From positions 3,226,001-3,290,000 of the forward strand of contig CM075992.1 in assembly GCA_038087875.1 (NCBI GenBank): 64,000 nt of DNA. Reading direction: 5' to 3'. Of this stretch, positions 3,311-59,328 are shown piece by piece. Source of the stretch: Malacoraja senta. Lineage: Eukaryota. Numbering within the stretch: the first letter of the stretch is position 1; each line of letters opens with the position of its first letter. The position numbers were made by a program, and so were the translations under genes. The notes below the pieces were generated by a model. That model saw nothing but the letters and a program-made list of their open reading frames with translations, did not search any database and had not been told where the DNA came from.

Positions 3311-3552
3311 GGCTCGGAACAGACCTCAGCACGACCACACAGTCGGGTGACCTCCCTCCGAAGGAGAAGGACCGGGAGCGAGGAAGGACCAAGGACAGGA
3401 AGCACCACCACCACCACCACCACCACCACCACACGTCGTCCGACAAGGAGCGTTATTCCCAGGAGCGGCACGAGTACAGCAGACCTCGATCAAGGGAGAG
3501 GCGGTGGTCTCGGTCACCGAGTGCAGGGCGCGAGTGTGTCCCCCATCGACAG
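3311..3552 (+). CDS. CACNA1A: Cav2.1 alpha-1A subunit, penultimate exon (equivalent to human exon 46), with His10 tract
   Basis: AG at 3309-3310 and GT at 3553-3554. Translates [31 protein letters not shown](H)10[11 protein letters not shown]...[17 protein letters not shown], matching the recalled human exon 46. Confidence 0.95.
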
Positions 3553-3904
3553 GTGGGTCTGCAGGCTTCACACACCGTGGCTGCTCAAAGAACTCTAGAC
3601 AATTGTGTCGCTGCGGCCACAGTGGAACTGGCAAGTGGGATGACCCAGTAGAGATCATTCAACCTTTGTTGCAGAAAAATATATTACTGATATCCTTAAC
3701 TCCACGATGTACCACCTTATAGAAACACCACCTTTCCCTAAATTACAACCTCAATCCCCCCCCCCAATATTATCAGTTACCCTTGCATTAAATGACTGAC
3801 TTTTATCCTAGACCCGACAGGTTTTACCGATCCCTTAAAACTTTATTCAGAAAGATTCAAGCACAGTGCCACACAGTTTATGATTAACTGTGGCACGGTT
3901 AACT

Positions 3905-4200: not shown

Positions 4201-4934
4201 GCATACACACAAATTGTTTCATTAATGTGTAATTTTAATGAGATACCGAGGACTATTCATTATCCGATAGTGTAGTCGAAGAGCATTTAAACAGACTCTT
4301 GAGCAAGCAGCGAATGGAGGCATATGATCCATGTACAGGGAAGTACAGTTTAAATTGGCATCATGGTCAGTACAGACACGATGGGCCAAAGGGCCTGATC
4401 CTGTGCTTCACTGTTCTATATTTAGTCTGCATTGCCATCCTATTTAATTCCTGATGAATGCTAAATATCCATTACAGAAAAATAAATGATCAGGAGGCTT
4501 TCGCAAATTGGTTCCAATGTAAAAAGTGAATCAAATCTCACTCGCTGAATGAAGCTGGTAGCAGGCGATGGTTCTAATCAAAACAAATTTTGTGCAATTG
4601 AACAACCACCATTGTGTATCTGATGACTGACCGACAATAATTTTAAACTGAAGGGCAGCACGAGCTGACCATCGGGGGATGGTGGGGGCTGGAAGATTAA
4701 AAATGACTTGCCAAAACTGCAAAGCTTTAACAGTAGAATTATGCTGAGAGCCATCATTTTTGATCAGCCGCCGCTTGTGAGATGGCTATTTACAGCCAGA
4801 TTGGCAAGTACAGATCCTCCACCAGGCCCTGGTCCACTGATCTACAGAAGGAAGAAAGAAATAGACCAGCTTCCCACATCTGATCATCAAAGTGGAAAAT
4901 GGATAAGTGCATGTGGCTGTCTACATATGGAGCA

Positions 4935-5141
4935 TGTTTAAGAAAGAACTGCAGATGCTGGAAGAATCGAAGGTAGACAAAAAATGCTGGAGAAACTCAG
5001 CGGGCGAGGCAGCGTCTATGGAGAGAAGGAATTGGCGACGTTTCGGGTCTGAAGAAGGGTCTCGACCCGAAACGTCGCCAATTCCTTCTCTCCATGGATG
5101 CTGCCTCACCCACTGAGTTTCTCCAGCATGTTTTTGTCTAC
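4935..5141. mobile_element. Palindromic Penelope-like non-autonomous repeat with hammerhead-like core
   Basis: Arms ...GTAGACAAAAAATGCTGGAGAAACTCAG... and ...CTGAGTTTCTCCAGCATGTTTTTGTCTAC are inverted. Core CTGAAGA-A-GGGTCTCGACCC-GAAACGTC at 5049-5076. Confidence 0.7.
5045..5079 (+). ncRNA. Minimal type I hammerhead ribozyme-like motif (predicted cleavage after 5076)
   Basis: CUGAAGA 5049-5055, extra A, stem II GGGU/ACCC with CUCG loop, GAAA 5069-5072, loopless palindromic stem III ACGU, GUC triplet 5074-5076, 3-bp stem I GGU/GCC. Confidence 0.6.
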
Positions 5142-6328
5142 TTATGGGGCATGATAGGTGGCTGCTGGTGACATGCACAATGCTTTATTCTGAAAGTGAT
5201 GCTAACTACCTTTTCATGCAATAACCAGCAGAATTATCTACTTTAAGCCAAGGTTGGTGTTCTGAACCAAATGGGCGACTTACCTTTGCAAATTTGTGTG
5301 AAGCAGGTAGCTTTTCCAAATTCAAAGAATGTGATGCAAGATTACTGGTTATCTTTTATTGAAACACAAAAAAATATATATTGTGAAGCCTATTTTTCTC
5401 TGGTTGTTGCTTTCTAACGAGCTGAGAGGCCATACAGATTAAACATCTTGGTTATGAAATGCTTCCCAGCACAGCCCTTGTACCCTCGTGGGACATGATT
5501 TCATTAGCTACCTATTCCTTACTCTCCATACTGTAATGAGATCTGCCAGACAGACGAGAGTTCACCCAGGCATAACATTCATATGAAAAAGACACAAAGG
5601 TGCTGGAGTAACTCAGCGGGACAGGCCGCAGCTCTGGAGAGAAGGAATGGGTGACCTTTCGGGTTGAGACACTTCTTTTAACTTTTCTGGGAAGGTTAAG
5701 ATGCTATTGAGGATACAATAGCCATCGTTTCTTATCACTATTAGACACATAGTTTCCCATTGGTGTGAAAATAAGTTCTTGAACATTAACACTGTGATAG
5801 CTACACAGCATGCACCGATTCCTTTGAACTCTCAAACTCAATACAATAAATTTTCCAGAGTAGGGTACAGTATGCAGCCGTGATTGCAACTTGCATTCAA
5901 CCCAGGTCAATTTCACACTCTAGATTTCAGCGGCCTAGGCCAAAGCCCGTAAACATTAAACCCATCTTTTCATTCACCACGGGGCCTCTGGAGTCCCAAC
6001 CTTTTCGGTTTAGGCTTGAGACTTCCAGCAGTGCGAGCATTTCCAAGTTGGATTACGAGCATAGTCTCCAAGCTGTCTAATGTGTACGGCCTTACAATGC
6101 GCTTTTAAACCCATGATATCTAAAGCACAATGCCTGCTCTTTTTCAACCCCTTGACTTACAGACGTCATTTCTCTTTTTACTTTCCTTTTTGACTTTTGT
6201 TGGTTCTGTGGTCGTTGCTTCCTTTTCCCTTTGTGTTACCTCTTTGCTTTCTCCGATGTTTTTTTTCCTGTCTGTGTTTTTGCTCCTGGTTTTTTATTTT
6301 TTGATTTGCTTTGTTTCGATTTTCATCT

Positions 6329-6338
6329 AGGGCAGTAG
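6329..6338 (+). promoter_or_regulatory. CACNA1A: Tandem splice acceptors AG|GGCAG|TAG controlling long versus short Cav2.1 C-terminus
   Basis: Sequence is ctAG GGCAG TAG tt. The upstream exon ends in phase 0, so use of the second AG places TAG in frame. Confidence 0.9.
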
Positions 6339-12600: not shown

Positions 12601-15600
12601 TAAAATAATATCCATGAAGGGAGAGGAGAGGCATGACATACAATGATATTCCTTTCAGAGTCGTTTGCAGAACTCTCATAGTCATAGAGCAAGGAAACAG
12701 GCCCTTCGGTCCAACTAGCCCATGCCAACCAAGATGCCTGATCTACACTAATCCCAGCTGCCCGCATTTGGCCCAAATCCCACTAAACCAGATGAGAAAC
12801 CGTATCAGATACAATTAATACTTTGCAGTCCAGATTCAATTCTGTTGACCTATTGATAGGGGGTCTAAGGCATTCAGTTGAGGAGGAATTTCATTGCAAA
12901 TATTTTACACAAACAGACTTGTGTGTATAAGTTTCAAACAAAACAGTAAATATTGTATCCTTAAACAAGTTTGTTAGAAACATCGAGTCCCTGTGCACTG
13001 AGGTAAAAACATAAGAAAATGGAGCAGGGGAAGGTCTTTGGCCTCTCGAGTCTGTTTGCCATTCATTAAGTTAGCTAATCTTCTCCTTTATCCACTTTCT
13101 GGTCATTTTCATATCGCCTGAGCCTTCAGTGCCCAAAAATCTATTGATAGATGAATATTGGCGAATGTCAGACTTTATAGTTCTAAAACCCTGCAAATGA
13201 AGAAATAACTAAAGATCACTTCAAAAGGTTTTGCATTCATCTTGGTCGAAGCAAGGAACTGCAGCATATCTTGTGCTGCCTGACCCGCTGAGTTCCTCCA
13301 GCACTTTTTGTCATCTGCAGTTATCCATTATTTATTTTGACATATATTCGAAGGCACCAGCTTTCAAAACTTATCTTAATAATGTGTATTCAATGCTGAC
13401 ATTTTTAAACATCTCTTTTGACCTCTGACAATTTTCATAATCTTTTCTGTAAACTGTAGGTAAGTGCATTGCATTCTTAGCTCTTGAGTGAGAACCTTGT
13501 AGGACCAAGTCCCTTATGTAGAATGAACTGTATTCTTAGACCCATAGAAATTTGTAGCTAGAAAGGTCATATTCAGTTCATCCAGTCCAACATTACCTGA
13601 GAAATGTATCCACGCCATCCATGAAAGCATTCCAGCTTAATCCTATTTAGTTTTTGATTAGGTTGGGGCTTAACCACGTAATTTTAAAGTGTGCTGAGGC
13701 CTCTGCCTCCACTTCCCTTTCAAGTGGTGAGTTCCAGGGTCCTTTCAGCCTCTGTGTGGTTTTCCCAAACTTTTCTCTATTTTTTTTCACCAACTCCTTT
13801 ATAACATTGTGTAGGAAGGAACTGCAGATGCTGGTTTAAACCCAAGATAGACAAAAACAGCTGGAGTAACTCAGCGGGTCAGGCAGCACCTCTGGAGAAA
13901 ATGAATAGGTGACGTTTTGCTTTGAGACGTCTTCAGACTGAGTCGGGGAAAAGGGCACGACAGATATGGAGGGTGATATAGAGAGATGTCGAACAAATGA
14001 ATGAAAGATATGCAAAAAACCTTCCTGCGTAAATGCTCATAAAATACACAGTGCACATGGATCTGTGTTTAAATAAAAACAATGAACAGTCTGTAACATA
14101 AAATAAATAGAATGGAGACGAGGAAACACTTTTTCATACAGAGAGTGGTGAATCTGTGGAATTCTCTGCCTCAGAGGGCGGTGGAAGCAGGTTCTCTGGA
14201 TGCTTTCAAGAGAGAGCTAGACAGGGCTCTTAAAAATAGCGGAGTCAGGGGATATGGGGAGAAGGCAGGAACGGGGTACTGATTGGGGATGATCAGCCAT
14301 GATCACATTGAATGGCGGTGCTGGCTCGAAGGGCTGAATGGCCTACTCCTGCACCTATTTTCTATAAATCATATGGAAATGGCATCATGGAAACAGATTT
14401 GTGTGGAAATCTGGAATTTTACATCAATCTCGTTCAGGATCAGGAAAGAGGAATAACAAGGTATTTCAAACACCACTGTTTATTCCTCAACATATAAAAT
14501 TCAATCACTAACCTCAGCAGTGGCAAACAACTGCCATAATCAACAAAATGCCGTCACCTGAATCCAACATTATAGCAAAACTGAAATAAGCTCAAAATGC
14601 AAGTCAGTTTTCTGAGGATGCAAAGATGCAAGGAACATGAGGCAGTTGGCATTCCGTATTATTTTAACCATACTTTATTTCAATTACTATTTGGATTCAG
14701 AATTGACTAAAACTTGCCTTCTGGAAATAAAAACATTGTGTGTAAACCAAGACATAGGCACAAAATGCCGGAGTAACTCAGCGGGACAGGAAACATCTCT
14801 GGAGAGAAGGAATGGGCGACGTTTCGGGTCGAGATCCTTTTTCAGACTGATAGTCAGTGGAGAGGGAGACTAGAGATATGGAAGGGTAAAAAGGGCAGGT
14901 AAAGTGTGAAAAGGACAGATCAAGGCAGATGCTGAAGAAGGAAAAGTAGAATGGTTCATTGTCGGCCATGGGGAAGGTGACAATGAGGCATACAAACAGT
15001 AAAATTAATCAGGAGGAAGGTGAAACTATGATGGGGGAGGGACTGAGAGTGGGGGAAAGCAAGGGTTACTTGAAGTTACAGAAATTAATACACATTCCGC
15101 TGGCATAAACCAAAGCTAAGTTAATACATGTGTCTTTTTCATGTTTGGCATGATCAACAAATCCCGTCAAAAGGATTAAATGCATCACTTGAGTTTGACA
15201 GAGGAAAGGAGAATTTAAGCAATTTATACTGTGGGATTCAGGATCATTTTCAATGGGTTGACTGTTCCCTCTGCTCAACAAATGTACTATTATATTGATG
15301 AATGAGAACATGTACAAGTGGGGAAAGGGGCATTCTTTGCAATGCAATGACTGAGTAATTTTTTAAATATGGTCTGACTTCTTTCAGGTGGTTAGTTCCA
15401 GACCTGCAAACTCCCACTGGGTGGAAAATAAATTATCAGCTCTTCCGTAATCCTTTATCAATTACCTGAAATGTATCTAATTTATTTCCCTGCCTTTAAC
15501 AGTCATTTATGAGATTGGGTGTCAAAGTTCACACTATCATTTATTGCCCATTCTTAATTATGTGTCTCATGCATACGCAGGCACATATATGATGTCCCAG

Positions 15601-19130: not shown

Positions 19131-21083
19131 TTTCCTTTCTCAGTCACACATCTCTATTGAAACATTCTTATTACCCCGTAAAAACAATAATCTTACAACT
19201 CTGATAACCATTTTTTTACTAGACTTTATCCTTAATCTTACTGTTACACTGATAGAATTAAGAAGTAAGTTTACGTTCTAAAGAAAAAAACACATATCTG
19301 TAAAACCTTTTGTTTTCCTTTCAGAATATTCCAATGTGATTCACGGCCAGTGAAGTGCTTTTGAAAAGTTGTCATTGTTCTCACACAGGTTTGGTCATTC
19401 TCTCTCTAGAGGCCAAGACAATAGCCAATAGGTGCAGGAGTAGGCCATTCGGCCCTTCGAGCCAGCACCGCCATTCAATGTGATCATGGCTGATCATCCC
19501 CAATCAGTACCCCGTTCCTGCCTTCTCCCCATATCATCTGACTCCTTTAACTTTAAGAGCCCTATCTAGCTCTCTCTTGAAAGTATCCAGAGAACCAGCC
19601 TCCATCGCCGTCTGAGGCAGAGAATTCCACAGACTCACAACTCTCTGTGTGAAGGAGTGTTTCCTCGTCTCCGTTCTAAATGGCTTACCCCTTATTCTTA
19701 AACTGTGGCCCCTGGTTCTGGACTCCCCCAACATCGGGAACATGGTTCCTGCCTCTAGCGTGTCCCATCCCTTAATAATCTTATATGTTTCAATAATCCC
19801 TCTCATCCTTCTAAACTCCAGAGTGTACAAGCCCAGCTGCTCCATTCAGCAGGGAATGCCTATGTTCATCAATCTCTCTTAGAAACTTTGAGGAAAATTT
19901 CACCATATTAACACACAAACTCACTTCATTTAAAAATTAAGTTTAATTATTGAAACTTACCAAATAGTGAAAGGCCTGGATAGAGTAGATGTGGAGAGGA
20001 TGTTTCCACTAGTGGGAGAGTCTAAGACCAAAGGTCATAGCCTCAGAATAAAAGGACGTACCTTTAGAAAGGAGAGCAGAAGACATTTCTTTAGTCAGAA
20101 GGTGGTGAATCTGTGGAATCCATCACCACAGGCGGCTGTGGAGGCCAAGTCAATGGATATTTTTAAGGTAGAGATTGCTAGATTCTGGATTTGTACGGGT
20201 ATCAGAGGTAAGGGGAGAAGGCAGGAGAATGTGGTTGAGAGAGAGAGATAGATCAGCCTTGATTGAATGGTGGAATGACCTAATTCTGCTCCTATCACAT
20301 GGTTTGGCAGATAATATGTGTTACTCATAACTGAGTGGGTCCCGTCCTGATATCCAACTTGACTCTACAGTGTCAAGCAAGTGTCACAGGTTAGAGTTCA
20401 GATGTAGAATTAAACAGAGGCCTTGTCTCGTGTAAGTGAGGTGAAAGATCCCAGAGCACCATTTTGAAGAACAACAGGGCAGTGTGTCCTGAACAATATT
20501 TACCTGGCACTCAAACATTATTTATCTGCCCATTATCACATTGCAATTAGTTATAGCTTTTTGTGCACAAATTTACCATGTTTTCTGCAGAAGTGCATCA
20601 TTGGCTGTAAACACTGGGGCATTTTGAAAAGTGCTCGAGAATGGAGACCTCTTGCTACACTGGGTGACAGAACATATGATATAGAACTGTGCCAGAAATA
20701 ATGTGTAGGAAAGAACTGCAGATGCTGGTTTACACCAAAGATAGACCCAAAACTCTGGAGCAACTCAGCAGGTCAGGCAGCATCTCTGGAGAAAAGTAGT
20801 AGATGACATTTTGGGTGAGATCCTTGTTCAGACTAAAACGTCACCCATTCCTTTTCTCCAGAGATGCTGCCTGACCCGCTGAGTTACTCCAGCTTCTATG
20901 GCAGAAAGGAACAACATTTGTTTTTCCAGTCTCTTCAGAGAAATGACGAGGCAGCAGTCAGTGATCTGTTTGTACTCATCTGTGCTTGCATGCATGTGTG
21001 AAAAAGGGGGAGAGACTGGATCTAGAGTAGACTGTGCAAGTATCGCATGCATCTAGTCTATTCACATTTGCCTTTAAAGATTG

Positions 21084-21280
21084 TTTAAAGAAGGAACTGC
21101 AGATGCTCGAAAATCGAAGGTAGACAAAAATGCTGGAGAAACTCAGCGGGTGAGGCAGCATCTATGGAGCGAAGGAAATAGGCGACGTTTCTGAAGAAGG
21201 GTCTCGACCCGAAACATCGCCTATTTCCTTCGCTCCATAGATGCTGCCTCACCCGCTGAGTTTCTCCAGCACTTTTTGTC
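21084..21280. mobile_element. Palindromic Penelope-like repeat with 15-bp TSD
   Basis: Inverted arms. TGCCTTTAAAGATTG occurs at 21069-21083 and 21281-21295. Degenerate hammerhead core at 21191-21218. Confidence 0.75.
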
Positions 21281-24200
21281 TGCCTTTAAAGATTGATCAC
21301 TTCACCAGGATCCTAGGCTGCTCTGTTGCTTATGGAAAATAACGGAATAATCTTTCATACATCCATGGGATGTTAGCATTAGTGGCTCGCCCATTTAAGG
21401 CTGTGTCCTAACTGCTCCTGAACTGGCTTCTGTGCTGGGCCATTCAGAGAGTAGACAAAATGTGTAGGAAGGAACTGCAGGTGCTGGTTTACACCGAAGA
21501 TAGACACAAAATGCCGGAGTAACTCAGAGGGTCAGGCAGTATCTCTGGAGAAAAGGAGTAGGTGACATTTCAGGTCGAGACCCTTCTTCAGACATTTCAG
21601 AGGGTAGTTAGAAGTCTCACTTATAGATTAGATTAAGAGAGTAGACCTTTCCAAAGATGGGATTCGTGGTCACCACTGTTGGTACTAGTTTTTTTAAAAA
21701 ATATTCCAAGTTATTTACCAGCTTCCAGGTAATTCATCCAAATTCATTATTCTGGGCCTCAAATCTATAGTGTCTGTCTATATCATATCGATATCTATAT
21801 CATAGGAATATTTCCTGTAGGGGAGTTGGTGGGAGGTGACTGGAGAATAATTGTGAGGAAAGGTGTCGCCAGAAGCAGCAAGAGTACTTCCGTCACTAGA
21901 GGGAAGAGGACAAGTAGGAATAATATGATTCTCATTCAATCATTGGACATAACACTACACATAGGAAGCATATGCCTTGGATAACATTCTGGCCTGAACC
22001 TCTCATGCAAGAACAGATTAAATCAACCTCTGGTTTCTAAGGTCAACAATATTGAATATATCAGAAGGCAAAATTCTCCTATTTTTCCTTCCCCTCCTCA
22101 AAGTTCTGCCTACCTTTCTGATTATTCCGATCTTCCGTTTATCTAGCCCATCCCCTGCAGTGCAGGCAGGTTTCCCAGGAAATGGTATCTGGGCACTCGT
22201 AGAGAGATGGTGTTCCCTTCTCTGGGTCACAGGGATGTCTGCATTGGTACAATGTGTAGGCACAAGATGTTGGCGGAATTGAGTTCTGGCATTCGTTCAG
22301 ATTCACGCATTTCTCCGAAAAGCAAGAGCCTGGAGCAAGAAGTCAAAGCATCAAAGGGATTGCATTCCGATATAAAAGGGAAGAAAACCCGACCATTTCC
22401 ATTGCCCTTTTCTGAATGTGATGACGTCCTCTTCCCAGATACAGGTCTGGGCCCTTTTACCGCTTCCGCCAAGGATAAAAGCATCAATCCATAATTACCT
22501 TCTGCCTTCTGTAGACCACACCTGCATAGAGCTAGCTGAACAGTGGACTGAGCAGGAGAAGCAAAACTATGTCAATTCTGTGCCCCAGATCCCACACTAA
22601 CCCCACGCAATCCCACCTTGGGTCAGCTGGATGTTTGTTGAAGCTTTGCCTGGTTATTCCGTCGTGAGTGACCCTCTGCCGATTTTTTTGTTGTCAAATC
22701 ACCTGAAATATATTGGCGCTGTGCGAAGTTTGCCTTTTTTAAACTTGTCGACTATTAATAATCTGATCCATTCGGCGAGACTGTAGCAAGATTTGGCAGC
22801 CAGACTGGTCATTGGGCCTAATGCCTACTTGTCTGGCTGACGTAATTCGACCGGAAAAGGGAACCAACATTCCCGCAGAGGTCTGGGAACAGGAGAGATG
22901 TCCTTTGTAGTTTCTCCGGAACTCAAGTGAGATGAACACAACCATTGCTACAAGACCACCCTCATTCCACCCTCTCCCACCAACCAAAACCATTTGACTT
23001 GCTCCAACATTTTCAGTTGCCATTCGGGGTAAATAGTCACTGACATCTTGTACATGCAAAAGCAAAGCATGAATTAATTCCAGGAGGTAATGGAATGCTA
23101 TCCCTGTGGCCTTCAAAGAAATAAAGGTTTATAATATGTGCCAAGATACTATGGAAGGGATGATTATCGTGTTACATTTTTAAAGCAAGATCAACAAACT
23201 GAATTACACATGTGATAGATCCCACACAAGCATAGCTCAACCTTAGAAACCAGCGACAGCTAATTTAATCTGACTACAAGCTTCTGTCAGTGTTTTATAT
23301 TTGTTGTCTAAAAGAGCAAGGGATTGATATTGCCGCCTGAACCCAGCAAGTTGCATCTCCTGGTCCAGGGGAAACATGACTGCGACCAACGGCACTGGAA
23401 ATCTGGAATAAGAGGGAATAAGAGTGCTGGAAATGCCCAGAGGACCAGGCAGCATACGCAGCAGGGAATAGCAGAGTTAGCATCTCAGCTCAATGAACTC
23501 AGGTGAGCCTGTGCACCAATGTGGCCTGACCTGCTGAGTATTTCCAGCATTGCTCGCAGCACTGCAGGGCTTCTTTTGCGAGTGCAGTACAATTTCCCGG
23601 TTCAGTCGACTGAACTTCCTCGACTTTTATTGTAAATTTGATAATCTGGTCAGATCTCACTTCAGCATCGTCCTCTTTGGCTTTCCCCCGGATGGTGTCA
23701 GTGCAAAGCAACCAAAGGCCCAAACATTCACCATTAAATCCCGTCACTGTGGCCAATTTTCTGATATCCTCTAGCAGACGAGGAGCAATTTTTTGATAGC
23801 CAAATGAAATCGCTGTTTTCTAACAATCACAAAAAATAATGATCTTGATTTTAAAGTGGACAGCCTGGATTCCTACTGAGGTATGAACCCCAGGTGAACC
23901 ATTCCCGCAGGGAATCCAAGGTGGCGATATCACAGACCTGCTCCAATGGAGATTAGTCTAATGAACAAACAGCTCTCGCACTTGGGAGACCCAGGTTCTC
24001 AGTGCTTGCATCGGAGATTGTTGTAGCTTCTGCTGGAGATCTACAGTCGTTCCAATCGCTTGTTAAGTGCATGTTTCTTTCTTAACAGAACAGTATTACT
24101 TCTGTGACTAACAACCCACACACACAACAACAACAACAACAAATAACCTGGGCACACATCCAGTGGACTATGCAATTCTGTAAACTCCTATATTCCCTTC

Positions 24201-29900: not shown

Positions 29901-32008
29901 AAATGGAACTCTGGTTAATTCCTACGTAACAAAATAATTTGTTGGAGATAGCTTAATTGTGAAATATATGATCTGACCATTTAACCTTCACATTTATCAT
30001 ATCTATCATAGCTTAATTTTTTTGAAATACGAAAGGTTAAGCTGGAATATCTTTCCATATTTACCCCTCCCACTCAAAAAATAAGTTCAAAACATTCATT
30101 GTGGCCTTGTTCACACACCACTGACCAGAAATTTGGCGGGTTTAGCACAGAAAAAGTAGGCCTCAAATGTTTGAACTAAACCAAATATTTAATTTCATAT
30201 TTTTTTACAATTCCTTTTCGTTCGGAAGAATATAATAAACTAGGTTTTGAGATTATTTAAAAAGAAAATTAAAAAAAATTAAAAAAGTATGCATGAGATT
30301 TTTAAGATGCACTTTAAGCTTCTTCTGATTAGTTTTTCTTCACGTTACTTGAAGTGTGCCTCTAATGGCTTCGGGGCGGAGCTCACTTCAATCTGGGGTC
30401 CCCTGGTGCTCCAGTCCACTTTCCCACTCAATCCACCTGTCGGTCATATGCGGAAACATGCAGATATAACATACCTTAGGGGCGGTGGGTACACAAGACT
30501 ACTAAAAGTTTTTAAAAAACTGCATGTGCGATGTGCATGCCACTATATGGGTAAATGTCACCTTCAGGATTATAGATGTTTTTAGGGCAGTGTGTTCTTT
30601 CCTCTTTTTAACAAATTTGGTAAATTAATGGAAGTTTGTTTGAGATATTTATATACATGCTGTTACTGAGATGGTCAAATCCATCTCTAGCTGCACCTGA
30701 GTAACAAAGTCTAACAGACGATGACAGGATAAAGCTGCCTGGTAATGTAAAACTTTGGCTTTGGACTAACAGTGCTGTTTCTACCAGTGCATTTTGTAAT
30801 CCCAAACAGAACCTTCCGTACCAAACCTGAATAAATCAGAGAGTATGCACATGTGAACTGTCTGCAATGGGTGTACTTATTTAAATCATCTTCCCTTTAC
30901 TCCATTTTTTGTTTTGACTGTCTGTTTCCTACACTCCTACACGTGGTATTGTGACATCAGTCTAAGTGCTTCAATCCCACACTGAGATCCTCCATATTAA
31001 TTCATGGTGCTGTCGATTGCACCAAATTTATTTGAGGATGCAATAGACAGCAAAAGTAACGTAGAAACAAGGAACTGCAGATGCTGGATTACATTTTTTT
31101 TTTTAAAGGCACAAAGCGCTGGGGTAACTCAGTGGGAGAAGATGGATAGGTGACGTTTCGGGTCGGGACCCTTCTTCAGAATCAGACTGAAGATGGTGGC
31201 GCAGCGGTAGAGTTGCTGCCTTACAGCACCAGAGACCCAGGTTCGACCCTGACTACGGGTGCTGTCTGTGTGTGCTCTCCCTGTGACCTGCGTGGGTTTT
31301 CCCCGGGTGCTCCGGTTTCCTCCCACATTCCAAAGACGTGCAGGCTTGTAGCTTAATTGGCTTCTGTAAATTGCCCCTGGTGTGTAGGTTTGAACCAGTG
31401 TAGGGGTGATCGCTGGTCAGCATGGAGTCGGTGGGCCGAAGGGCCCGTTTATGCATTGTATCTCTAAAGTAAAGAGTCCCGAGCCGAAATGTCACCTATC
31501 CATGGTACACAAAAATGCTGGAGAAACTCAGCGGACACCAAATGTCACCTATCCATGTTCTCCAGATATGCTATCTGACCCACTAGGTTACTCCAGCACT
31601 TTGTGACCTATAGTTTGCAATAGACAGCAACCACCTTACTCCTCCAGGCCATAAGATGGTGCTCAGGCACCATTTCTGGAGTATTTCCAACCATCAGACA
31701 GTGCGGTAGATAGCATTACTGCAATTCCCCATGCCACCATGCTGAGTGTAGTATTAGTCCTCCAAGGCACCAGGTTGCATCCCTTTGGTCCTCCCAATCC
31801 ACTAGGTGGCGCTTTGGTACTATTGTACATAGAAAATAGGTGCAGGAGTAGGCCATTCGGCCCTTCGAGCCATTCAATATGATCATGACTGATCATCCAA
31901 AATCAGTACCACGTTCCTGCTTCCTCCCCATATCCCTTGATTCCGTTAGCCCTAAGAGCTGTATCTAGCTATTGCAATAAGTCACGGTGTGGCAAAATAT
32001 AGCAGTCA

Positions 32009-32180
32009 CCATCTATATCTCTCGTTACCCTTTCCCCTGACTCTCAGTCTGAAGAAGGGTCTTGACCCGAAACGTCACCTATTCCTTTTCTCCAGAGATG
32101 CTGTCTGACCCGCTGAGTAACTCCAGCTTTTTGTGTCTATCTTCGGTTTAAATTAATATCTGCGGTTCCCCCCCTACACA
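32009..32180 (+). mobile_element. Penelope-like pseudo-LTR fragment, single arm with hammerhead core
   Basis: CCATCTATATCTCTCG...CAGT-CTGAAGAAGGGTCTTGACCCGAAACGTC-ACCTATTCC...CCTACAC, with the core at 32049-32076. Confidence 0.65.
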
Positions 32181-33197
32181 TGGTGTAGTTCCTTCCTATT
32201 TTAAACTATAGACAATAGGTGCAGGAGTAGGCCATTCGGCCCTTCGAGCCAGCACCGCCATTTAATGTGATCATGGCTGATCATCCCCAATCAGTACCCA
32301 GAGTCCACACTCTGCAGCTGACTCAGAGCCAGACCCATACCCTTATCTTCCTGGTTGGTGGTGAAGACTCTTTCTTGATGGTGCTGTAGTGAATCAATGC
32401 ATCCACGAGGAAATAATTTGCATCCTCGAGCCACAGGGAATCACGAGAGGCATCTTTTCTACAATGAAATGTTTCCAAGAAACAACATTTTTATGTAAGG
32501 AACCATCATCTGTAAAAATAAATAATTATATTCAGAAAATAACCTGATGTGGTTGTGGGTATTAATAAAACTCACTATTCCCTTGGTGCCTTCCCATAAG
32601 CTCTTGTGGGACCCAGAGTACACTGTGTGTGTGCAGTGTTGATGCAGGCAAGAGGCAGAACATTGGTTTGCTGCCTGGGTACCTTGGCACAATGCCACAA
32701 TGAGGCTTCCTGATCTGCTTTAGTTCGATTATATATATTCTGTTCAGTTTGTCCTAAATACACCATCTATATCTCTCGTTCCCCTTTCCCTCAGTCTGAA
32801 GAAGGGTCTCGAGCCGAAACGTCACCTATTATTTTTCTCCTGTGACGCTACCTGACCCGATGAGTTACTCCAGCTTTTTGTGTCGGAAGCTTGATTTAGT
32901 TCTGTTCAGTTTAATTCAGCTCCGTTTAATGTAGCTGTTATGATTATTGTCATGTGTACCGTGCTTGCTCGAAGGGCCGAATGGCCTACTCCTGCACCTA
33001 TTGTCTATTGTCTACCGAGGTACGGTGAAAAGCTTTTGTTTACGTGCTATCGGGTCAATGAAAAGCTTTATATGATTGCAATCAAGCCGCCCGTGTACAG
33101 ATACAGGATAAAGACTACAACACATCATGCAAGATAAAGTCAGCTTAATGATAGTTCAAAGGCCTCCAATGAGGTAGATGGGAGGCTATAACAGAAA

Positions 33198-33439: not shown

Positions 33440-34597
33440 TAAAGGTATAAATATCAGTCTGAAGAAGGGTCTCGACCTGAAACGTCGCCCATTCCTTCTC
33501 TCCAGAGCTACTCCCTCACCTGCTGAGTTACTCCAGCATTTTGTGTCTATCTTCTACTATTATGATGTCTGTAAAAAGGAGGGTTTACTGTATTCTCTCA
33601 CTTGGGGAGATCTTGCCAAACAATTTGCATGCACGCAATAAAGAGAGTGCTAAATTGGAAACAACATCACCCTTTTCTCTCAGCTTTATCCCCTTGCGAC
33701 TGAGGCTCATTAACAGGGCAGGGAGACAGATACCTATCAGTAGAGCTTCTCTCGCCTCCCCATTGAACTGCTCTGGGCGGATTGCCTTTGTAATGGTGGG
33801 TGTCTGATTACACTTGTCCCGGCCCCACTGATGTATTGGGTACCTTCAAGTCAAGAGAGTTTTATTGTCATGTGTCCCAGATAGGACAATGAAATTCTTG
33901 CTTGCTGCAGCACAACAGAATATTGTAGGCATAAATACAGATCAGTTCAGTGTGTCCATATACCATAGAATATAGATATATACACACACACATAAATAAA
34001 CAGATAAAGTGCAATAGGCTGTTATAGTTCAGAATTTGTTTGAAGTTTTTAATAGTCTGATGGCTGTGGGGAAGTAACTATTCCTGAACCTGGATATTGC
34101 AGATTTCAGGCTCCTGTACCTTCTGCCTGATGGTAGCGGAGAGATGAGTGTGTGGCCAGGATGGTGTGGGTCCTTGATGATGCTGCCAGCCTTTTTGAGG
34201 CAGCGACTGCGGTAGATCCCCTCGATGGTAGGGAGGTCAGAGATAGACCCATCTGTCTCCTGCCTTTATACCTCTGGATGTATTCCCAGCTGTAATCAGG
34301 CAACTGAACAGTTCTTTTATCAGATAAACTGCGATCCTCCCATCTACCTCTTTGGAGACCTTTGAACCTTAATCGGACATTATCGAACTTTATCTTGCAC
34401 TAAATATTGTGCCCTTTATCCTGTATCTGTACACTGTGGACGACTTGATTGCAATCATGTATAGCTTTTCTGAAGAAGGGTTTGGGCATGAAACGTTGCC
34501 TATTTCCTTCTCTCCATAGATGCTGCTGCACCCGCTGAGTTTCTCCAGCATTTTGTCTACCTTCGATTTTCCAGCATCTGCAGTTCCTTCTTGAACA

Positions 34598-35235
34598 TAT
34601 AATAATAATAATAATGAATTTTATTTATAGGCGCCTTATACCGAGGTCTCAAGGACACCTTACAGAGATTTATGGTTAACATATAATCAGAATAATCAGA
34701 ATTAAAAAAATAAGTTATAAAAGGCCAATACACAAATCAGGGACAGAATTCCTTCCAAAAACACAAAAAAGAAAATCAGAAACACAATTTGAGAAGATAG
34801 TTTTTCTTTGACTGGAGCTTTTCACTGTACCTCAGTACACGTGACAATAATAAATAATAATAATAATAATTCATTTTATTTACTGGCGCCTTTCTAAAAC
34901 CCAAGGACACCTTACAAGGCATAGAATCACACAAAAAAATACAAAACACATAATTGGAAAAAATCAAATGTAAAAACACCACAAGTACACAAATCAAGGA
35001 CAGAATTCAATTACAAAAGCACAAAAAGAAATAAGAAACACAATTTGAGGAGAGAGCAGCGGCGACCAATTCGCGCCAGCGTCCACTCTCCCCTCCGACC
35101 GCCATCTTGCACACAGACTAACAGGCACAGCACACAAAAATCATCCCCCCACAATGACCACCACTGTGGGGGAAGGCACAATGTCCAGTCCCCAACCCAG
35201 TTCTCCCCAGAGTCAGGCCCATCGAGGCCGCCACA
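34598..35235 (-). mobile_element. Two adjacent related elements with L2-like 3' tails ending in (ATT)n
   Basis: Minus strand TGTAAGGTGTCCTTG...AGGCGCC..TAAATAAAAT..ATTATTATT at about 34598-34795 and 34850-35235. Confidence 0.55.
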
Positions 35236-36582
35236 GTTGAAACTAATATAGAATAAATGTATTTATCTTATGTAATAGTTCATCCAACATCACTTTCTAT
35301 CAACCTCTGTGTGTAGAAGTATCTCCTAACTTCACCCCTGAAATGTTTGGATCCATTTTTTGGTCCATCATTCTGAAAATAAAGTTTCCCTTCGTCCACC
35401 CGATCACAATATCCAGAAAACATAATGATCTAAATGCCGGGCAACAGAACCCTATTTATTCAACAACAACAAAAATCATATTTTAACCCTTGAAAGTCCA
35501 GGTACAGTAGCGCTGTGGTAGAGTTGCTGCCTCACAGCGCCAGAGACCCGGGTTCGATCCTGACTATGGGTGCTGTCTGTACGGAGTTTGCACGTTCTCC
35601 CCGTGACCGCGTGGGTTTTCACCGGGTGCTCCAGTTTCCTCCCGCATCCCAAAGACGTACAGGTTTGTAGGTTAATTGGCTTTGGTAAATTGTAAAATTG
35701 TCCCTAGTGTGTGTGGGGTACTGTATTGGGTGACCGCTGGCCAGCCTGGACTCAGTGGGACTGTTTCCCACTCTATATCTAATGCCTAAAGTATCATTCT
35801 GGTAAATCTATGTTGCTCTCCCTTCAAGGCCATTACATCCTTCCTGAAGAATCTGAAGAAGGGTCTCGACCAGAAACGTCACCCGTTCCTTCTCTCCAGA
35901 GATGCTGCCTGTCCTGCTGAGTTACTCCAGCATTTTGTGTCTACAGTACCTTCGGTGTAAACCAGCATCTGCAGTTCCTTCCTACACAACCTGCCTAAGA
36001 TGTGTAGGCCAAGCACCCCCAGGTGTGGTCTAACCAGACCTCTTGATAAACACTCATCACGTACATTCTTTAGATATAATGTCCGACATTCCATTAGCCT
36101 TTATAATGCTCTCCAGTTTAGAAAGAGGAAGTAGCTATCAGGAGGTGAATTCCCCACGGTATAGCAGGGCTGCAGTGAAGGTTGGATGGGCTTTGTTTTA
36201 ACAACTGAAGCAACATTTCCTCTTTACAATAAGTGAACTCTCCTGGATCAGGCAAGCCACATTTCATACCCACTCTCAAAACTTCCCGATAGGCTGAGTA
36301 ATGGGATTAATTAAGGACATATTTGAGATTCCGCCTAGTTTTTGTTGGCAAATTTTGAAAAAAAATGTCCAAATTCACATAATTGGGGCGTCACTGACAT
36401 TTTAGTTTATTGTCACATTTACCGAGGTACAGTGAAAAGCTTTTGTTGCGTGCTATCCAGTCAGCGGAAAGACAATACATGATTACAATCGAGCCGTCTA
36501 CAGGGTACAGATACATGATGAGGGAATAACGTTTAGTGCAAGGTAAAGACCAATTAAAGATAGTCCGAGGGTCTCCAATGAG

Positions 36583-38416: not shown

Positions 38417-39416
38417 AAGACCCTGGCGCGACGCAACGTCTCACCTCCAACAGCAGCAGAAGCAGGGAAACGATCGCCGAACTCGGCCTGGGGCTCACGG
38501 CCGTTGCGGTCCGGATCCGACCCCACTTCTACTCCCAGAGCGGGGCCAAGAAAATTGAAGATAGACACAAAATGCAGGAGTAACTCAGCGGGACCGGCAG
38601 CATCTCTGGAGAGAAGCAATGGGTGACGTTTCGGGTCGAGACCCTTCTTTCAGACTGAAGAATGGTCTCGACACGAAACATCACCCATTCCTTCTCTCCA
38701 GAAGATTGTATTGTATTGTTGTATTGTATATTGTATTGTATATCTTTATTGTCATTTCCTGAGTATTCGCATACCCAGAGGAAACAAAAAAACGTTCCTC
38801 AACCAGTGTCCATTTCAGTGTGCAGTAAAAAATAAATAGAAGTAAAAATACATATATCATGAACAAATTAACACTCTACTCTACTAAACATCAACAGGCG
38901 TTCAACAGCGGCACGACAGTGGCTCTGCTGCAGTGTGTCCAGGTTGGTGGTTGGTGCACGATACTTTGGCAGGGGACAAAGTCCGTTTATCAGTCTTATA
39001 ACCTGCGGGAAGAAGCTGAGGAGCATCCTGCTGGTTTTGCACCTAATGCTCCGGTACCTCTTCCCAGATGCTGCCGGTCCCGCTGAGTTACTCCAGCATT
39101 TTGTGTTGACCTTAAACTAAATCTGACTTGGATTCCTCTTCACTAGGGCCAGTCCCTTCACGGAGGTGATTAACGTGGGTAGCAGACTGTTGACCACGAG
39201 GAACGTCACAGCTGAGCCCAACTCTGCCACCATCTACACGTTGGCAATTATTGCCAGGAGTCTGTGGACAATCATTTTATTCTTCACACCAGCTGTGAGA
39301 TGGGGAGCGGGGAAGGGGGCCGAGGGGTTCTTGTCAAATTTGGTACGGATTGGATTGAATGAATTTCTTGTGACCAGTGCCAGCAGGTAACTATTCCTTT
39401 ATCATCCATCTTGCAG

Positions 39417-43425: not shown

Positions 43426-44324
43426 GTAAGTTGCCTTTCATTACAGAACATGGTACAACACAGGAACGGCCCCATCCCCTTCATGTCTGTGCCGAACATG
43501 ATGCAAGGATAAACTATTCTCATCTGCCTGCATAGAACAAACAACAGTGCCGCACAAGAACGGGCCCTTCAGCCAGCAATGTTTGTGTCGAAATTATGCC
43601 TAGTTAAACTGATCTCATCTGCCTGTACATGATCCATATCCCTCTATTCCCTGCACTTCCATGTACCTATCTGGAAGCCTCGACACACTCCTATTGTATC
43701 TGCCTCCACCACCATCCCAGCAGGTTTCCGCTACTCTGTGTAAATGAAAAAAACCTGCCCCGCACATCTCCATTAACCTTTCCCCATTTCCACCCTGGGG
43801 GGAAAAAAAGGTTCTGGCTGTCTACCCTATCTAGGTCTATTATAATGTTGTACACTTCTATCAAGTCATCCCTATCAAGAAAACAATCCAAGTCTATCCA
43901 GCCTCTCCCTGTAGCTGAAACCCTCTAATCCAGGCAGCATTCTGGACCCTCTGCACCCTATTCAAAGCCTCCCAATCCTTCCTGCAATGGGGTGACCAGA
44001 ACTGCATGCATTACTCCAAATGCGGGCTGACCAAAGTCCAATAGGGCTGCATCATGACTAATCCGCTCCATTCTTGGATTTCACCGATGTATGTGGTGTG
44101 GGGGAATTCACTGGTCGTGGGTTCATGAATGGGGAGTGCCATTTTAATGTAAGTCAGTTCTTCAATGGAACCTCTTAAACCTATGTGTAGGAAAGAACTG
44201 CAGATGCTGGTTTACACCGAAGGTAGACACAAAATGCTGGAGTAACTCAGCGGGACAGGCAGCATCTCTGGAGAGAAGGAATAGGTGATTCGGGTGGAGA
44301 CCCTTCTTCAGACCCGTTTAGTCA

Positions 44325-44460: not shown

Positions 44461-44733
44461 ACCAGTTTAGTAAAGATGAGGGAGTGTGGGCCTGGAAAAC
44501 AGAAGTAATTGAAGAGCAAAGGGCATGTGGGGGGGGGGGGTGGGGGGGATAGGGTCTGACGAAGGGTCTCGACCTGAAACGTCGCCCATTCCTTCTCTCT
44601 TGAGATGCTGCCTGTCCCGCTGAGTTACTCCAGCACTATGTGTCTATCTTGGGTGTAAACCAGCATCCGCAGTTCCTTCCTACACACCAGTCGGTGTCCA
44701 AGCAGGATTTGACATTCACCGTCTATGTGTCAG

Positions 44734-45057: not shown

Positions 45058-45446
45058 TCCAGGGTTACGTCCGCGCCCGGGTGGTGTTAGAGAGGGACGA
45101 CGCGCTGTCCGCGGGCAGCCTGGGGGATTTCCGGGACCGCTGGGCGCCTCGGGGGGTTGAATGCATCTTTTACAAGGAGTGTAAGATAGTTTGTTTAAGA
45201 AGGAACTGCAGATGCTGGAAAATCGAAGGTAGACAAAATTGCTGGAGAAACTCAGCAGGTGAGGCAGCATCTATGGAGCGAAGGAGATAGGCAACGCTTC
45301 GGGCTGAAACCCTTCAGTGTAAGATAGTTGTATAATAGTTTATCATTTGTCGTGTATTAGGGTGGTGGGATCTGTTTTGTTTCTTACTGCACTGTATATA
45401 TCATTTGAATAAATATTTTTGATTAAAAAGAAAAAGAAAAAAAAAA
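45058..45446 (+). mobile_element. Tx1-clade LINE 3' end with poly(A) and a nested Penelope-like insertion
   Basis: FQGYVRARVVLERDDALSAGSLGDFRDRWAPRG, AATAAA and an A-rich tail, flanked by an AGGCACCTCTT repeat. Nested insert 45192-45315 has a 14-bp TSD. Confidence 0.7.
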
Positions 45447-46215: not shown

Positions 46216-46988
46216 GTAAGAAGACGTATCTGTGGTGAGGCTCCTGTAGAACAGGACTGGTCCCTTCCAGTGCTCAGAGCTCCAATACATGGGGGCTTAC
46301 AGCAGGCATCCATGATGTGGAAGAAGGAACGGCAGATGCTGGTTAAAACCAAAGATAGACACAAAGTGCTGGAGTAACTCAGCAGGACAGGCAGCATCTC
46401 TGGGGAGAGGGAATGGGTGACGTTTCTTCAGACTCTGAAGAGGGGTCTCGACCCGAAACGTCACCCATTCCTTCTCTCCAATGACACTGCTTGTCCCGCT
46501 GAGTTACTCCAGCATTCTGTGTCTGCCTTAGGTGAGGTCAGGTCAGATGCATGAACCATTAATCCCGACACTCAAACTTCCCTGCATTGATCTGGTAGCC
46601 ATACTCGGGCTTTAGTTTTTGTCTAGAGAGACAGCACGGAAACAGCCCCTTCAGCCCACCAAGTCCATGCCGACCATTGGTCACCCGTTCACACTAGATC
46701 TAATGTTGTCCCACTTTCTCATCCATTCCCTTCACAATAGGGGCAATTCTACAGTGGGAAGGAGATGAGGAGACGTGTCTTTAGTCAGAGGGTGGTGAAT
46801 CTGTGGAATTCTTTGCCACAGAAGGCTATGGAGGCCAAGTCAGTGGATATTATTATGGCAGAGATAGATTTTTGATTAGTACGGGTGTCTGGTGTTAGGG
46901 AGAGAAAGCAGGAGAATGGGGTTAAGACGGAGAGATAGATCAGCCATGATTGAATGGCGGAGTAGACTTGATGGGCCGAATGGCCTAA

Positions 46989-49651: not shown

Positions 49652-50985
49652 TTATTCAACTTCACCTCCCTTCCTGTGGTTATCCAAACTCTCCATTTTA
49701 TCAAATCACTCCTGTGCTCCCATCCATAGGTCCCAACAGGTAGCAGGTCCCATAGAAGAACAGGTAGCAGGTCCCAGGTAAGAACAGGTAGCAGCATTTT
49801 GTACTTTCTCCCCGTGACCTGCGTGGGTTTTCTCCGAGATCTTTGGTTTCCTCCCACACTCCAAAGACATACAGGTTAATTGGCTTGGTAAAATGTAAAA
49901 ATTGTCCTTAGTTGGTATAGGATTGTGTTAATGTGCGGGGATCGCTGGTCGGCCGAAAGGGCCTGTTTCCGCGCTGTATCTCCAAACTAAACTAAAAAAG
50001 TTCCATTGAAGAACAGATATTTTGTTCTTTGGTTGGTTGTTGGTTATTGGTTTATTGTTGTCACAAGTATTGAGGTACAGTGAAAAGCTTTTGTTTGCGT
50101 GCTATCTGATTAAATCAGAAAAAACTATCCATGAAACAGTCAAGCCTAACACAAGTGCTGCAGAGGCAGTTGAGGCAGATTTAGTTTGGTTTAGAGATAC
50201 AGTGCGGAAACAGGCCCTGCTGCCTATCGAGTCCATGCCGACCAGCGATCCCCGCACACTAACACTATCCTACACACACTAGGGACAAGTTACACTAATA
50301 CCAAGCCAATTAACCTACAAACCTGGACGTCTTTAGAGTGGTACTGTCGCAACATTTAACATTCGGACAGGTTTGGAGGATGTGGGCCAAATGCAGGCAG
50401 GTGGGCCTAGTATAGGTGGGACATATTGGTCGGTGTGGGCAAGTTGGGCCTGTTTCTACGCTGTATGACTCTAAATATACGAAGAAGGAAGAGAAAAATA
50501 CCAGAGTACTGAATTCTCAGTAGTTTCTCAGAATTGTAGTGTAACAGTTCCAGAGAAAATGTCCAACCTCCACAGAGATAGGTTGGAAGATCAGGCCCAC
50601 CGAGTCCGTGCCGACTGATCACTCGTTCACTAGTTCTATCCCACGTACTGGGGACAATTTACAGAAGCTCCGAAGTACAATTTTTACCAACACCAATTAA
50701 CCTACAATCCTGTGCGTCTTTGGAGTGTGGGAGGCAACCGGAGAAAACTGACGCGATCACAGGGAGAAGGTACAAACTCCGCACAGGCAGCACCCGTAGT
50801 CAGGATGGAACCCGGGTCTCTGCGCTGTGAGGCAGCAACTCTACCGCTGCGCCGCCCGTCTCTCCTCTGCACCATTGAAAATGAGGGTTATAGGACGGAA
50901 CTGCAAATGCTGGTATAAATCAAAGATAGACGCAAAATGCTGGAGTAACTCAGCAGGACAGGCAGCATCTCTGGAGAGAAGGAAT

Positions 50986-51020
50986 GGTGACGTTTCGGGT
51001 CGAGACCCTTCTTCAGACCC
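50986..51020 (-). ncRNA. Minimal hammerhead ribozyme-like motif, sense to the MAN2B1 pre-mRNA
   Basis: Minus strand GGGU-CUGAAGA-A-GGGUCUCGACCC-GAAAC-GUC-ACC; stem I GGU/ACC. Confidence 0.6.
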
Positions 51021-51282: not shown

Positions 51283-52978
51283 CTGAATGAAAAAGAGAGA
51301 TATAGAATTAGACGCCAGCTCTATCGTTAGCTGTTTTCTGCTTACCCCCCCCTCTCCCCTTGAATTTGGATGTAAATCTTCTCCAAGCAGTCTATGTAGA
51401 CCATGCTTTGAATGGCAGCGGGTATGAAACATAACATACATAGTGTGGAGGAAGGAACTGCAGGTGCTGGTTTAGACTGACGATAAGACACAAAGTGCTG
51501 GAAGGGGTGAGGGAAGATCAGAACTTGCACAGACAAACTCTGTCCTGCAATAATGAATGTACTTCGACAAACTTGCTGTGCGGGATATGAGCAAGGATTC
51601 ACTCCCTACCACTGGTACTTTATAATTGGTCCAAGGTCAGGTTTCAGAGCAACAGGGGTATTAAATTGGCGTTGGAAGGAACTGCAGATGCTGGTTTACC
51701 CCGAAGGTAGACACAAAATGCTGGAGTAACTCAGCGGGACAGGCAGCATCTCTGGAGAGAAGGAATACGTGATGTTTTGGGTTGGAACCCTTCTTCAGCC
51801 TGAAAGTGGGGGTGGGTGGGGTGGGGAATAAAGTGGGGGTGGGTGGGGTGGGGGAATAAAGTGGAGGTGAGTAATGGTCAGAACATTTTTGGGCTGGCAA
51901 CAGATGTCCACAGAAAGGGTGGATAGGGTGCCTAACAGTTGGCAAGGGAAGGTATGATAACAAGAAGGGGGAGGAAACCCACGTGATCACAGGAGAACAT
52001 GCAAACTCCACACGGACAGCACCCGTAGTCAGGATCGAACCCTGGTCTCTGGCGCTGTAAGGCAGCAACTCTACCGCTGCGCCACCGTGCCGCCCAAAGT
52101 CTCGCTTGTTCTGAGATACAGGGAAATATGGTTATCAGAGGACAGGGCTGTAGCCACAGAAGGCTGTGGAGGCCAAGTGAATGGGTATTTTTAAGGCAGC
52201 GATAGATAGATTCTTGATTAGTACGGGTTACGGGGAGAAGGCAGGTGAATGGGGTTAGGAGGGGGAGATAGATCAGCCATGATTGAATGGCAGAGTAGAC
52301 TTGATGGGCCGAATGGCCTAAATCTGCTGCCACCACAGGAAACTCAGAGAAAGCACGAGTACAGTCAAACCGCACAGGATCGTAACAGGTTCTAGAGGCA
52401 TGGAGGATGTGGGAAAAGCAAAAGAAAAACAGAATGTGAAGACACAAGAGACTGCAGATGCTGGAATCTCCAGCAAAGAATAAAGTGCTGGAGGAACATC
52501 AGCAGGCCAGGCTGGGGAGAGAAATGGATAAATGATGTTTCGGGGTCAAGAGCCTTCTTCCGACTGAAGAAGTCTGAAGAGAGGGTAGACAAAAATGCTG
52601 GAGAAACTCAGCGGGTGAGGCAGCATCTACGGAGCGAAGGAAATAGGCAACGTTTCGGGCCGAAACCTTTCTTCAGACTGATGTGAGGGTGGGGGGGGGG
52701 GGGGCGGGAAGTCTGAAGAGAGGTTGTACATGGGGTTCTACTTCTGCGCCAATGTGCCACACCTCATTCACAGCTGTAACTGCACTTTGGGTCAGCCCAT
52801 ATTCACTACAAAGTTTATACTCCATTGTATCGCCCTTTTAGGCTCACCCTACTTTAACTCCCAGCTCTTTGGACTGGTGGGATAAAAATTAACATGTTCA
52901 CATACAACAGAGATCTTCTCCACCTCCCCCTCTCACTGCCAGTCCATGGCTGTCCGCAAATACAGACGAGGAACCTAC

Positions 52979-59021: not shown

Positions 59022-59328
59022 CTTGGAGGCAAAAGAACAATCATAGACAGACACAACATGTTGGAGTAACTCAGCGGGACAGGCAGCATCTCTGGAGAGT
59101 AGGAAGGGGTGACGTTTCGGGTCGACCATCTTTGGACTTTATCTTGTACTAAACGTTATTCATGTTATCATGTATCTTCGTATACGGCTTCCTGACCCGC
59201 TGAGTTGCTCCAGCACTTTGTGTCTATCTTTGGTGTAAACCAGCATCGACCCAGTGCCAAGATGCTGTCTGAAGAAGGGTCCCGACCAGAAACGTTGCTT
59301 ACCCATTCTCTCCACACATGCTGCCTAA

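What the first reader, a model, noticed from the sequence alone, without database searches (positions are those of the whole stretch)
5045..5079. One of the most abundant short repeats in the window carries a minimal hammerhead ribozyme core
Seen: CTGAAGA-A-GGGTCTCGACCC-GAAAC-GTC recurs on + near 5049, 32049, 32796, 33459, 35854, 44556 (CTGACGA) and 46435, on - near 14818, 31152, 38625 and 50989, and in several decayed copies. It has the CUGANGA and GAAA boxes, a stem II, a GUC cleavage triplet and a loopless palindromic stem III (ACGU). Established: Penelope-like elements carry minimal type I hammerheads in their pseudo-LTRs, with palindromic stem III proposed to work as dimers. Inference: this is a high-copy, non-coding, ribozyme-bearing Penelope-derived family. 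It scatters potential self-cleaving motifs through introns of CACNA1A (5049), TRMT1 (44556, 46435) and MAN2B1 (50989), each in the sense orientation. Stem I is only 3-4 bp, so monomers may be inactive.
Basis: partly seen in the sequence, partly recalled or inferred. Interest (0 to 1): 0.8.

Follow-up and report, generated by a model that had tools for sequence, protein, structure and literature searches.

The report
Penelope retroelement ends carrying minimal hammerheads
This short repeat is the end piece of a very abundant Penelope-like jumping gene in a skate-like fish and carries an already described miniature hammerhead ribozyme motif, but the scattered copies are likely inert relics that are not predicted to cut their host genes' RNA.

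Summary
The motif is real: a minimal type I hammerhead, with 18,728 exact and 68,348 intact-core matches in this 1.94-Gb genome (controls 0). It is the pseudo-LTR end of a Neptune-type Penelope-like element, not an independent non-coding family. It lies 99-129 nt after the GIY-YIG end in 18 of 20 copies, and one full pLTR-ORF-pLTR unit was found. Distant relatives keep the core with covarying stems (11 of 34).

The functional story fails. Orientation in three genes is unbiased (79 sense, 81 antisense). Native stem I is 2 bp. The 5049 copy is a fold-back insertion predicted to bury its core. Cores decay like the neighbouring tail. Copy 5' ends do not pile at the cleavage site.

They pile instead 1-5 nt upstream of CUGA, at an initiator-like TCAGT, likely run-off cDNA from the RNA 5' end. 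This is the one fresh point. The kind has been known since 2014, and the scan noted it before in other genomes.

The parts
4926..4936 (+). left target-site duplication (10 of 11 bases identical to the right copy)
   Evidence: read from the flanks printed
4937..5048 (-). inverted arm of the insertion: starts in stem II of the hammerhead (no CUGA box) and runs to the long tail end
   Evidence: profile positions +15 to +136 relative to C3; pairs with the direct arm
5049..5076 (+). minimal type I hammerhead core: CUGAAGA 5049-5055, extra A 5056, stem II 5057-5060/5065-5068, GAAA 5069-5072, ACGU 5072-5075, predicted cut after 5076
5077..5142 (+). rest of the pseudo-LTR downstream of the hammerhead, ending at the short 3' end (about +93)
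5143..5153 (+). right target-site duplication
   Evidence: read from the flanks printed
5581..5683 (-). decayed copy, antisense in the same CACNA1A intron
14752..14867 (-). copy with part of the 3' UTR; G8 mutated
21081..21295 (.). fold-back pair; direct arm has a broken stem III
31066..31192 (-). copy with intact core
32020..32172 (+). copy with intact core and upstream UTR remnant
32768..32888 (+). copy with intact core boxes, one stem II mismatch
33451..33561 (+). solo copy starting at TCAGT, intact core
34469..34605 (+). solo copy of the GUU-triplet subfamily
35850..35993 (+). solo copy, G10.1-C11.1 pair broken
38550..38702 (.). fold-back pair just upstream of the first TRMT1 exon found in the window; the better arm is antisense
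44176..44313 (-). solo copy antisense in a TRMT1 intron, 3-base deletion in the core
44554..44689 (+). solo copy sense in a TRMT1 intron, intact core
45187..45315 (-). copy antisense in a TRMT1 intron, starts inside the core
46310..46542 (.). fold-back pair in TRMT1 after the last coding exon matched; inverted arm lacks stem II
50888..51019 (-). solo copy sense in the last MAN2B1 intron, exact core
52580..52725 (-). GUU-subfamily copy sense in a MAN2B1 intron
59267..59328 (+). copy antisense in a MAN2B1 intron, core boxes intact

Best explanation
The repeat is the hammerhead-bearing pseudo-LTR end of an abundant Neptune-type Penelope-like retrotransposon, and the scattered 100-140 bp copies are target-duplication-flanked insertion stubs that were likely reverse-transcribed from uncleaved element RNA and are likely catalytically inert. 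Shown: the order RT, zinc-finger linker, GIY-YIG, about 110 nt of pyrimidine-rich UTR, hammerhead, then 65 or 105 nt more; two alternative 3' ends about 40 nt apart; fold-back pairs; target duplications. Inferred: the element's endonuclease nicks DNA and its RT starts at one of two internal sites downstream of the hammerhead, as shown in vitro for the anole element. When RT uses the pLTR at the 5' end of the transcript it would run off the RNA just upstream of CUGA, giving solo stubs; priming from both DNA strands would give the fold-backs. The ribozyme is selected in the active lineage and would cut only as a dimer or with help from the element's protein; inserted copies decay neutrally.
For: Hammerhead 99-129 nt after the GIY-YIG end in 18 of 20 loci, two of them near-duplicates. 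8,322 genomic places join the GIY-YIG end to the motif at 100-130 nt, control 0. 16 of 20 loci picked by an N-terminal ORF stretch have the motif about 2.0-2.3 kb downstream, some being duplicates. L074 is pLTR-ORF-pLTR with two motifs 3.8 kb apart. Pfam GIY-YIG above cut-off; homologs carry RVT_1; the CX4CX2C linker is visible in L044. 3' ends are bimodal near +95 and +134; 63 of 88 complete fold-back pairs have one long and one short arm (p 6e-5); 26 of 130 solo copies have a duplication of 7 nt or more against 5% in shuffled pairs. 5' ends: 15.8 per nt at -5..-1 against 1.3 per nt at the cut site and about 0.1 per nt in the UTR. 11 of 34 distant relatives have the same core with covarying stems I and II; reverse-strand control 0, shuffles 0.05. 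Literature: PMC4209133, PMC11167929, PMC8557442, PMC3846280.
Against: No intact full-length ORF was found among the 20 long copies examined (longest element frame 560 aa), so present activity is not shown. Neptune placement rests on the linker motif, not on a tree with named references. 23 of 34 relatives showed no motif under my strict descriptor. No transcription start or cleavage was measured. The test for a cap-derived extra G gave only a mild excess, 0.47 against 0.34-0.42 expected. In one count catalytic non-CpG columns were less mutated than tail columns (5.1% against 8.8%), though the tail figure includes subfamily-diagnostic columns.
Confidence: 0.85

Rival explanations
1. The 5' cliff marks the edge of a protein-protected or structured RNA fragment (RNA trimmed back to the hammerhead, or RT falling off before the C-rich tract), not a transcription start.
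For: The cliff coincides with the 5' edge of the hammerhead and with the end of a C-rich tract; its edge is spread over about five bases; the cap-G signal is weak. In Drosophila Penelope the start lies 46 bp plus a 75-bp intron upstream of the ribozyme (PMC2377424, PMC4209133).
Against: TCAGT is kept by all subfamilies that differ further upstream and fits an initiator consensus (recalled; an Inr-like TCACT is reported in a rotifer pLTR, PMC3846280). Stalling on the ribozyme fold would leave ends 3' of stem II, where density is low. 15 of 26 solo copies starting at G(-2) have G next, p 0.003 before correcting for four tests.
Confidence: 0.35
2. The solo stubs are a self-propagating non-autonomous family (SINE-like or retrozyme-like) with its own master copies, mobilised by the Penelope protein.
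For: Solo copies outnumber long ones, 147 solo to 58 extended of 319, and are complete insertions with target duplications. PLE-derived retrozymes are described in vertebrates (bioRxiv 10.64898/2026.07.22.740005).
Against: Both main sequence types (GUC and GUU) occur in long and in solo copies; solo copies share no upstream sequence; the window copies are dispersed, not tandem arrays; their ends do not match cleavage products.
Confidence: 0.15
3. Sense-oriented intronic copies self-cleave in host pre-mRNA and affect CACNA1A, TRMT1 or MAN2B1.
For: Some intact cores are sense in introns; MAN2B1 alone has 14 sense to 5 antisense fragments; two chance flanks extend stem I to 3-4 bp (44556, 51016).
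Against: 79 sense to 81 antisense overall, intact 15 to 19, no difference between intact and broken copies. Predicted stem II and stem I pairing is 0.04 or less in all seven window copies folded. G12 is mutated in 22% of copies through CpG decay. Single minimal hammerheads showed no cleavage in vitro (PMC4209133).
Confidence: 0.04

Closest known systems
Minimal type I hammerheads (min-HHR) in pLTRs of metazoan Penelope-like elements (Cervera and de la Pena 2014, PMC4209133; parts 1-2 of 4 read, two of three supplements searched)
   Same: CUGANGA and GAAA boxes, extra base between 9 and 10.1, G10.1-C11.1, loopless palindromic stem III, place in the pLTR, mostly single dispersed motifs from truncated elements.
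   Different: Stem I is 2 bp, like the Drosophila virilis variant, against 4-5 bp described for schistosome motifs; at least 68,348 intact cores against about 9,000 (Xenopus) and 4,000 (coelacanth) in that paper; a large subfamily has a GUU triplet.
Neptune clade of endonuclease-bearing PLEs (Craig et al. 2021, PMC8557442; passages read)
   Same: RT then C-terminal GIY-YIG, zinc-finger-like linker, 5' truncation, inverted 5' copy, optional 30-40 bp tail.
   Different: No intact ORF seen; Neptune against Nematis not resolved by a tree.
Anole Poseidon element PAc (Frangieh et al. 2024, PMC11167929; parts 1-2 of 4 read)
   Same: Two RT start sites bracketing a tail, both DNA strands extended, uncleaved RNA as template, no reads at the cut site.
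   Different: Other clade; there the ORF starts in stem II, here the first ORF starts after the tail; copy 5' ends at the ribozyme edge are not described in the parts read.
Non-LTR retrozymes (bioRxiv 10.64898/2026.07.22.740005; parts 1 and 3 of 5 and passages read)
   Same: Type I hammerhead, derived from PLE pLTRs, found in a cartilaginous fish.
   Different: Retrozymes are tandem arrays with cleavage-defined units; these copies are dispersed stubs or head-to-head fold-backs that span the cut site.

Membership tests
min-HHR of metazoan PLEs | CUGANGA and GAAA boxes with UH cleavage site | tested here: met
min-HHR of metazoan PLEs | extra nucleotide before 10.1, G10.1-C11.1 pair, palindromic 15.2-16.2 | tested here: met
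   A5056, G5057-C5068, ACGU; column counts
min-HHR of metazoan PLEs | stem I of a few base pairs | tested here: inconclusive
   2 contiguous bp in native context; 3-6 bp in relatives
min-HHR of metazoan PLEs | located in the pLTR of a PLE | tested here: met
min-HHR of metazoan PLEs | core constant while stems covary across lineages | tested here: met
   11 of 34 relatives; within this family only one-sided changes
min-HHR of metazoan PLEs | self-cleavage as dimer or with protein | not testable with these tools
   needs an in vitro assay; folding does not favour the active form
EN+ Penelope-like element | RT followed by GIY-YIG endonuclease | tested here: met
EN+ Penelope-like element | pLTRs in direct or inverted arrangement, optional 30-40 bp tail | tested here: met
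   L074, L023
Neptune clade | zinc-finger-like CX2-5CxxC linker between RT and EN | tested here: met
   L044; shared with Nematis per PMC8557442
Neptune clade | RT phylogeny with named Neptune references | not tested
   no named reference set at hand
Non-LTR retrozyme | tandem head-to-tail units each with a hammerhead | tested here: not met
   window copies are dispersed or head-to-head; not surveyed genome-wide
Rfam hammerhead families | covariance model match | tested here: not met
   none in the window at E up to 5 or in L033 and L074 at E up to 1

The most novel reading that the evidence does not exclude
The stubs are a genome-scale record of the Penelope RNA's 5' end: transcription starts at an initiator just before the hammerhead, and RT starting in that first pLTR runs off after 100-140 nt, so the element litters the genome with hundreds of thousands of run-off cDNAs. 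The ribozyme, with only a 2-bp stem I and a competing fold, would act as a protein-gated switch at the start of the RNA and stay uncut in the templates that insert.
Probability: 0.45. Interest if true: 0.5.

Novelty: new member of a known kind. Interest (0 to 1): 0.28.

Why it matters
As a ribozyme it is an ordinary member of a class described in 2014. Its value is scale: with at least 68,000 intact cores it allows tests that smaller families do not. These show no strand selection in introns, no copies derived from cleavage products, and a sharp 5' boundary at the ribozyme edge. If that boundary is the transcription start, it ties the in vitro internal-initiation mechanism to the solo and fold-back copies seen in many Penelope-rich genomes, and bears on the open question of what PLE hammerheads do.

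Tried and rejected
Rfam found no hammerhead; its miRNA hits, all below gathering score, include the fold-back copies at 5021-5093, 21141-21261 and 46401-46480.

Splicing of the pyrimidine tract as an intron ending at CAG before the hammerhead: 6 genomic matches with a short gap, none a precise CAG/GT to CAG join, against 8,322 unspliced. Rejected for that donor region only.

Cap-derived G: mild excess, inconclusive.

Sequencing runs: no RNA holder listed; four runs laid were contigs only and cannot show RNA ends or strand.

The first GIY-YIG search mostly returned a different, telomere-associated family.

The counts were undercounts from a regex option and were replaced.

PDB search with the RT frame found nothing.

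Lunse et al. 2017 (PMC5785218) is not held; I saw only its title and a review's summary (PMC6765202, passages), so this motif may be listed there. One supplement of PMC4209133 could not be searched, and bioRxiv supplements are closed. Searches for a prior description in skates or sharks showed none by title or abstract.

Full report
Observation. The motif lies at 5049-5076 as described. The two boxes with a short spacer occur 16 times in the window against 1.11 by chance. The genome (1.94 Gb) has 18,728 exact copies of the 28-mer and 68,348 matches to an intact-core pattern; both reversed controls gave 0. Forty evenly spaced 10-kb stretches gave 161 profile hits, which extrapolates to about 780,000 fragments (a rough figure). 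The closest named homologs of TRMT1 and MAN2B1 exons are from rays and a skate, so the host is a batoid fish.

What it belongs to. Longer copies extend upstream through a pyrimidine-rich stretch into the end of a GIY-YIG frame. A search with that frame gave 107,298 first-look candidates, 150 scored. In the best 20 loci, 18 have the motif 99-129 nt later; one has it deleted and one is interrupted. Genome-wide, 8,322 places link the two exactly. I fetched 20 of 40 loci matching an N-terminal ORF stretch; 16 have the motif about 2.0-2.3 kb downstream, behind RT and GIY-YIG, with some loci duplicates of each other. L074 is a full unit: pLTR with hammerhead, tail running on into the body, first ORF, RT, GIY-YIG, second hammerhead 3.8 kb on. 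All 20 are broken by stops or frameshifts. The linker CX4CX2C before GIY-YIG is the mark of Neptune and Nematis (PMC8557442); no tree was made.

Is it a hammerhead? It meets the sequence traits listed by Cervera and de la Pena (PMC4209133). Of 80 related metagenome loci, 37 were taken as reaching the protein end and 34 had enough downstream DNA; 11 of these carry the same core 98-301 nt after the ORF with different, complementary stems I (3-6 bp) and II; controls gave 0 and 0.05. So the fold is selected across the lineage. In this family native stem I is 2 bp (TCAGT upstream), and 44 of the first 100 listed cores have a GUU triplet (counted by eye).

Are the scattered copies active? Probably not. 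The 5049 copy is a 206-bp fold-back with an 11-bp target duplication; it folds into a -119 kcal/mol hairpin that buries the core. In all seven window copies folded, predicted stem II pairing is 0.04 or less; in three natural copies from elsewhere it is 0.13 or less, because the purine-rich core pairs with the pyrimidine run after the cut site (predictions only). Among 182 spanning copies, 54 keep the core and 38 also stem II; G12 is mutated in 22% through CpG decay, and CpG columns decay alike in core (26%) and tail (30%). Non-CpG catalytic columns differ at 5.1% against 8.8% in the tail, but the tail figure includes subfamily differences, and invariant tail columns show mostly 3-9%. I mapped CACNA1A over 158 kb, the 3' half of TRMT1 (its 5' half lies beyond an assembly gap and was not found) and part of MAN2B1. 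Orientation is 79 sense to 81 antisense; intact 15 to 19; MAN2B1 alone leans sense (14 to 5) and CACNA1A slightly antisense (60 to 70).

How the copies arise. In 884 kb there are 563 fragments. 3' ends cluster near +95 and +134 from C3, matching the optional tail of PLEs and the two RT start sites shown for the anole element (PMC11167929). There are 106 head-to-head pairs; of the 88 with both arms complete, 63 have one long and one short arm, as described for rotifer elements (PMC3846280). 26 of 130 solo copies have a duplication of 7 nt or more against 5% in controls. Among 304 non-inverted copies, 5' ends fall at 15.8 per nt at -5..-1, 1.3 per nt at the cut site and about 0.1 per nt in the far UTR. 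Anchoring on the inner core alone, 147 of 319 copies are solo, 114 inverted, 58 extended; in solo copies the match to the native upstream bases fades from about 0.7 at -2 to about 0.1 at -5 (102 of 223 and 0.02 in the smaller set). So templates were uncleaved and ended just before CUGA. I infer run-off at a transcription start on the initiator-like TCAGT (consensus recalled), about 55% likely; a protected-fragment edge is the main rival. A spliced form was not found, and the cap-G test was inconclusive.

Comparison. It works like, and by the features tested is a member of, the minimal PLE hammerheads; catalysis is untested. It is not a retrozyme array. Four earlier scan notes on other genomes reached the same filing; none exist for this genome. 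The 5' cliff was not described in the passages I read, but I did not read those papers whole and could not open Lunse et al. 2017.

Verdict. Real, correctly named, known kind; the intron story is not supported. Interest 0.28.

Noticed in passing
L033-L042 (G000 C5550, C1804, end of C14, start of C17): A second, young PLE family with many intact 759-aa RT plus GIY-YIG frames in tandem arrays among (CCCTAA)n repeats, several at chromosome ends. It has a first ORF with a weak GDSL esterase match and a different type I hammerhead with a full 5-bp stem III that folds as a monomer in prediction. A telomere-associated, endonuclease-bearing PLE in a vertebrate deserves its own look.
   Followed up: partly
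window 37514-37713: Assembly gap; TRMT1 residues 1-422 are not found in the window or the 10 kb on either side.
   Followed up: partly
window 6331-7032 and 3292-3648: CACNA1A last exon with a run of about 19 glutamines, and the poly-histidine exon.
   Followed up: no
window 59516-59708: Long near-perfect inverted repeat unrelated to this family, hit by miRNA models below gathering score.
   Followed up: no
window 46310-46434 and 21081-21295: Arms in which stem II or part of the core is cleanly skipped at the fold-back junction, as if RT jumped the hairpin.
   Followed up: no
G000 C16:3191894-3192569: Two adjacent similar CACNA1A exons, likely the mutually exclusive 37a/37b pair (name recalled).
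   Followed up: no
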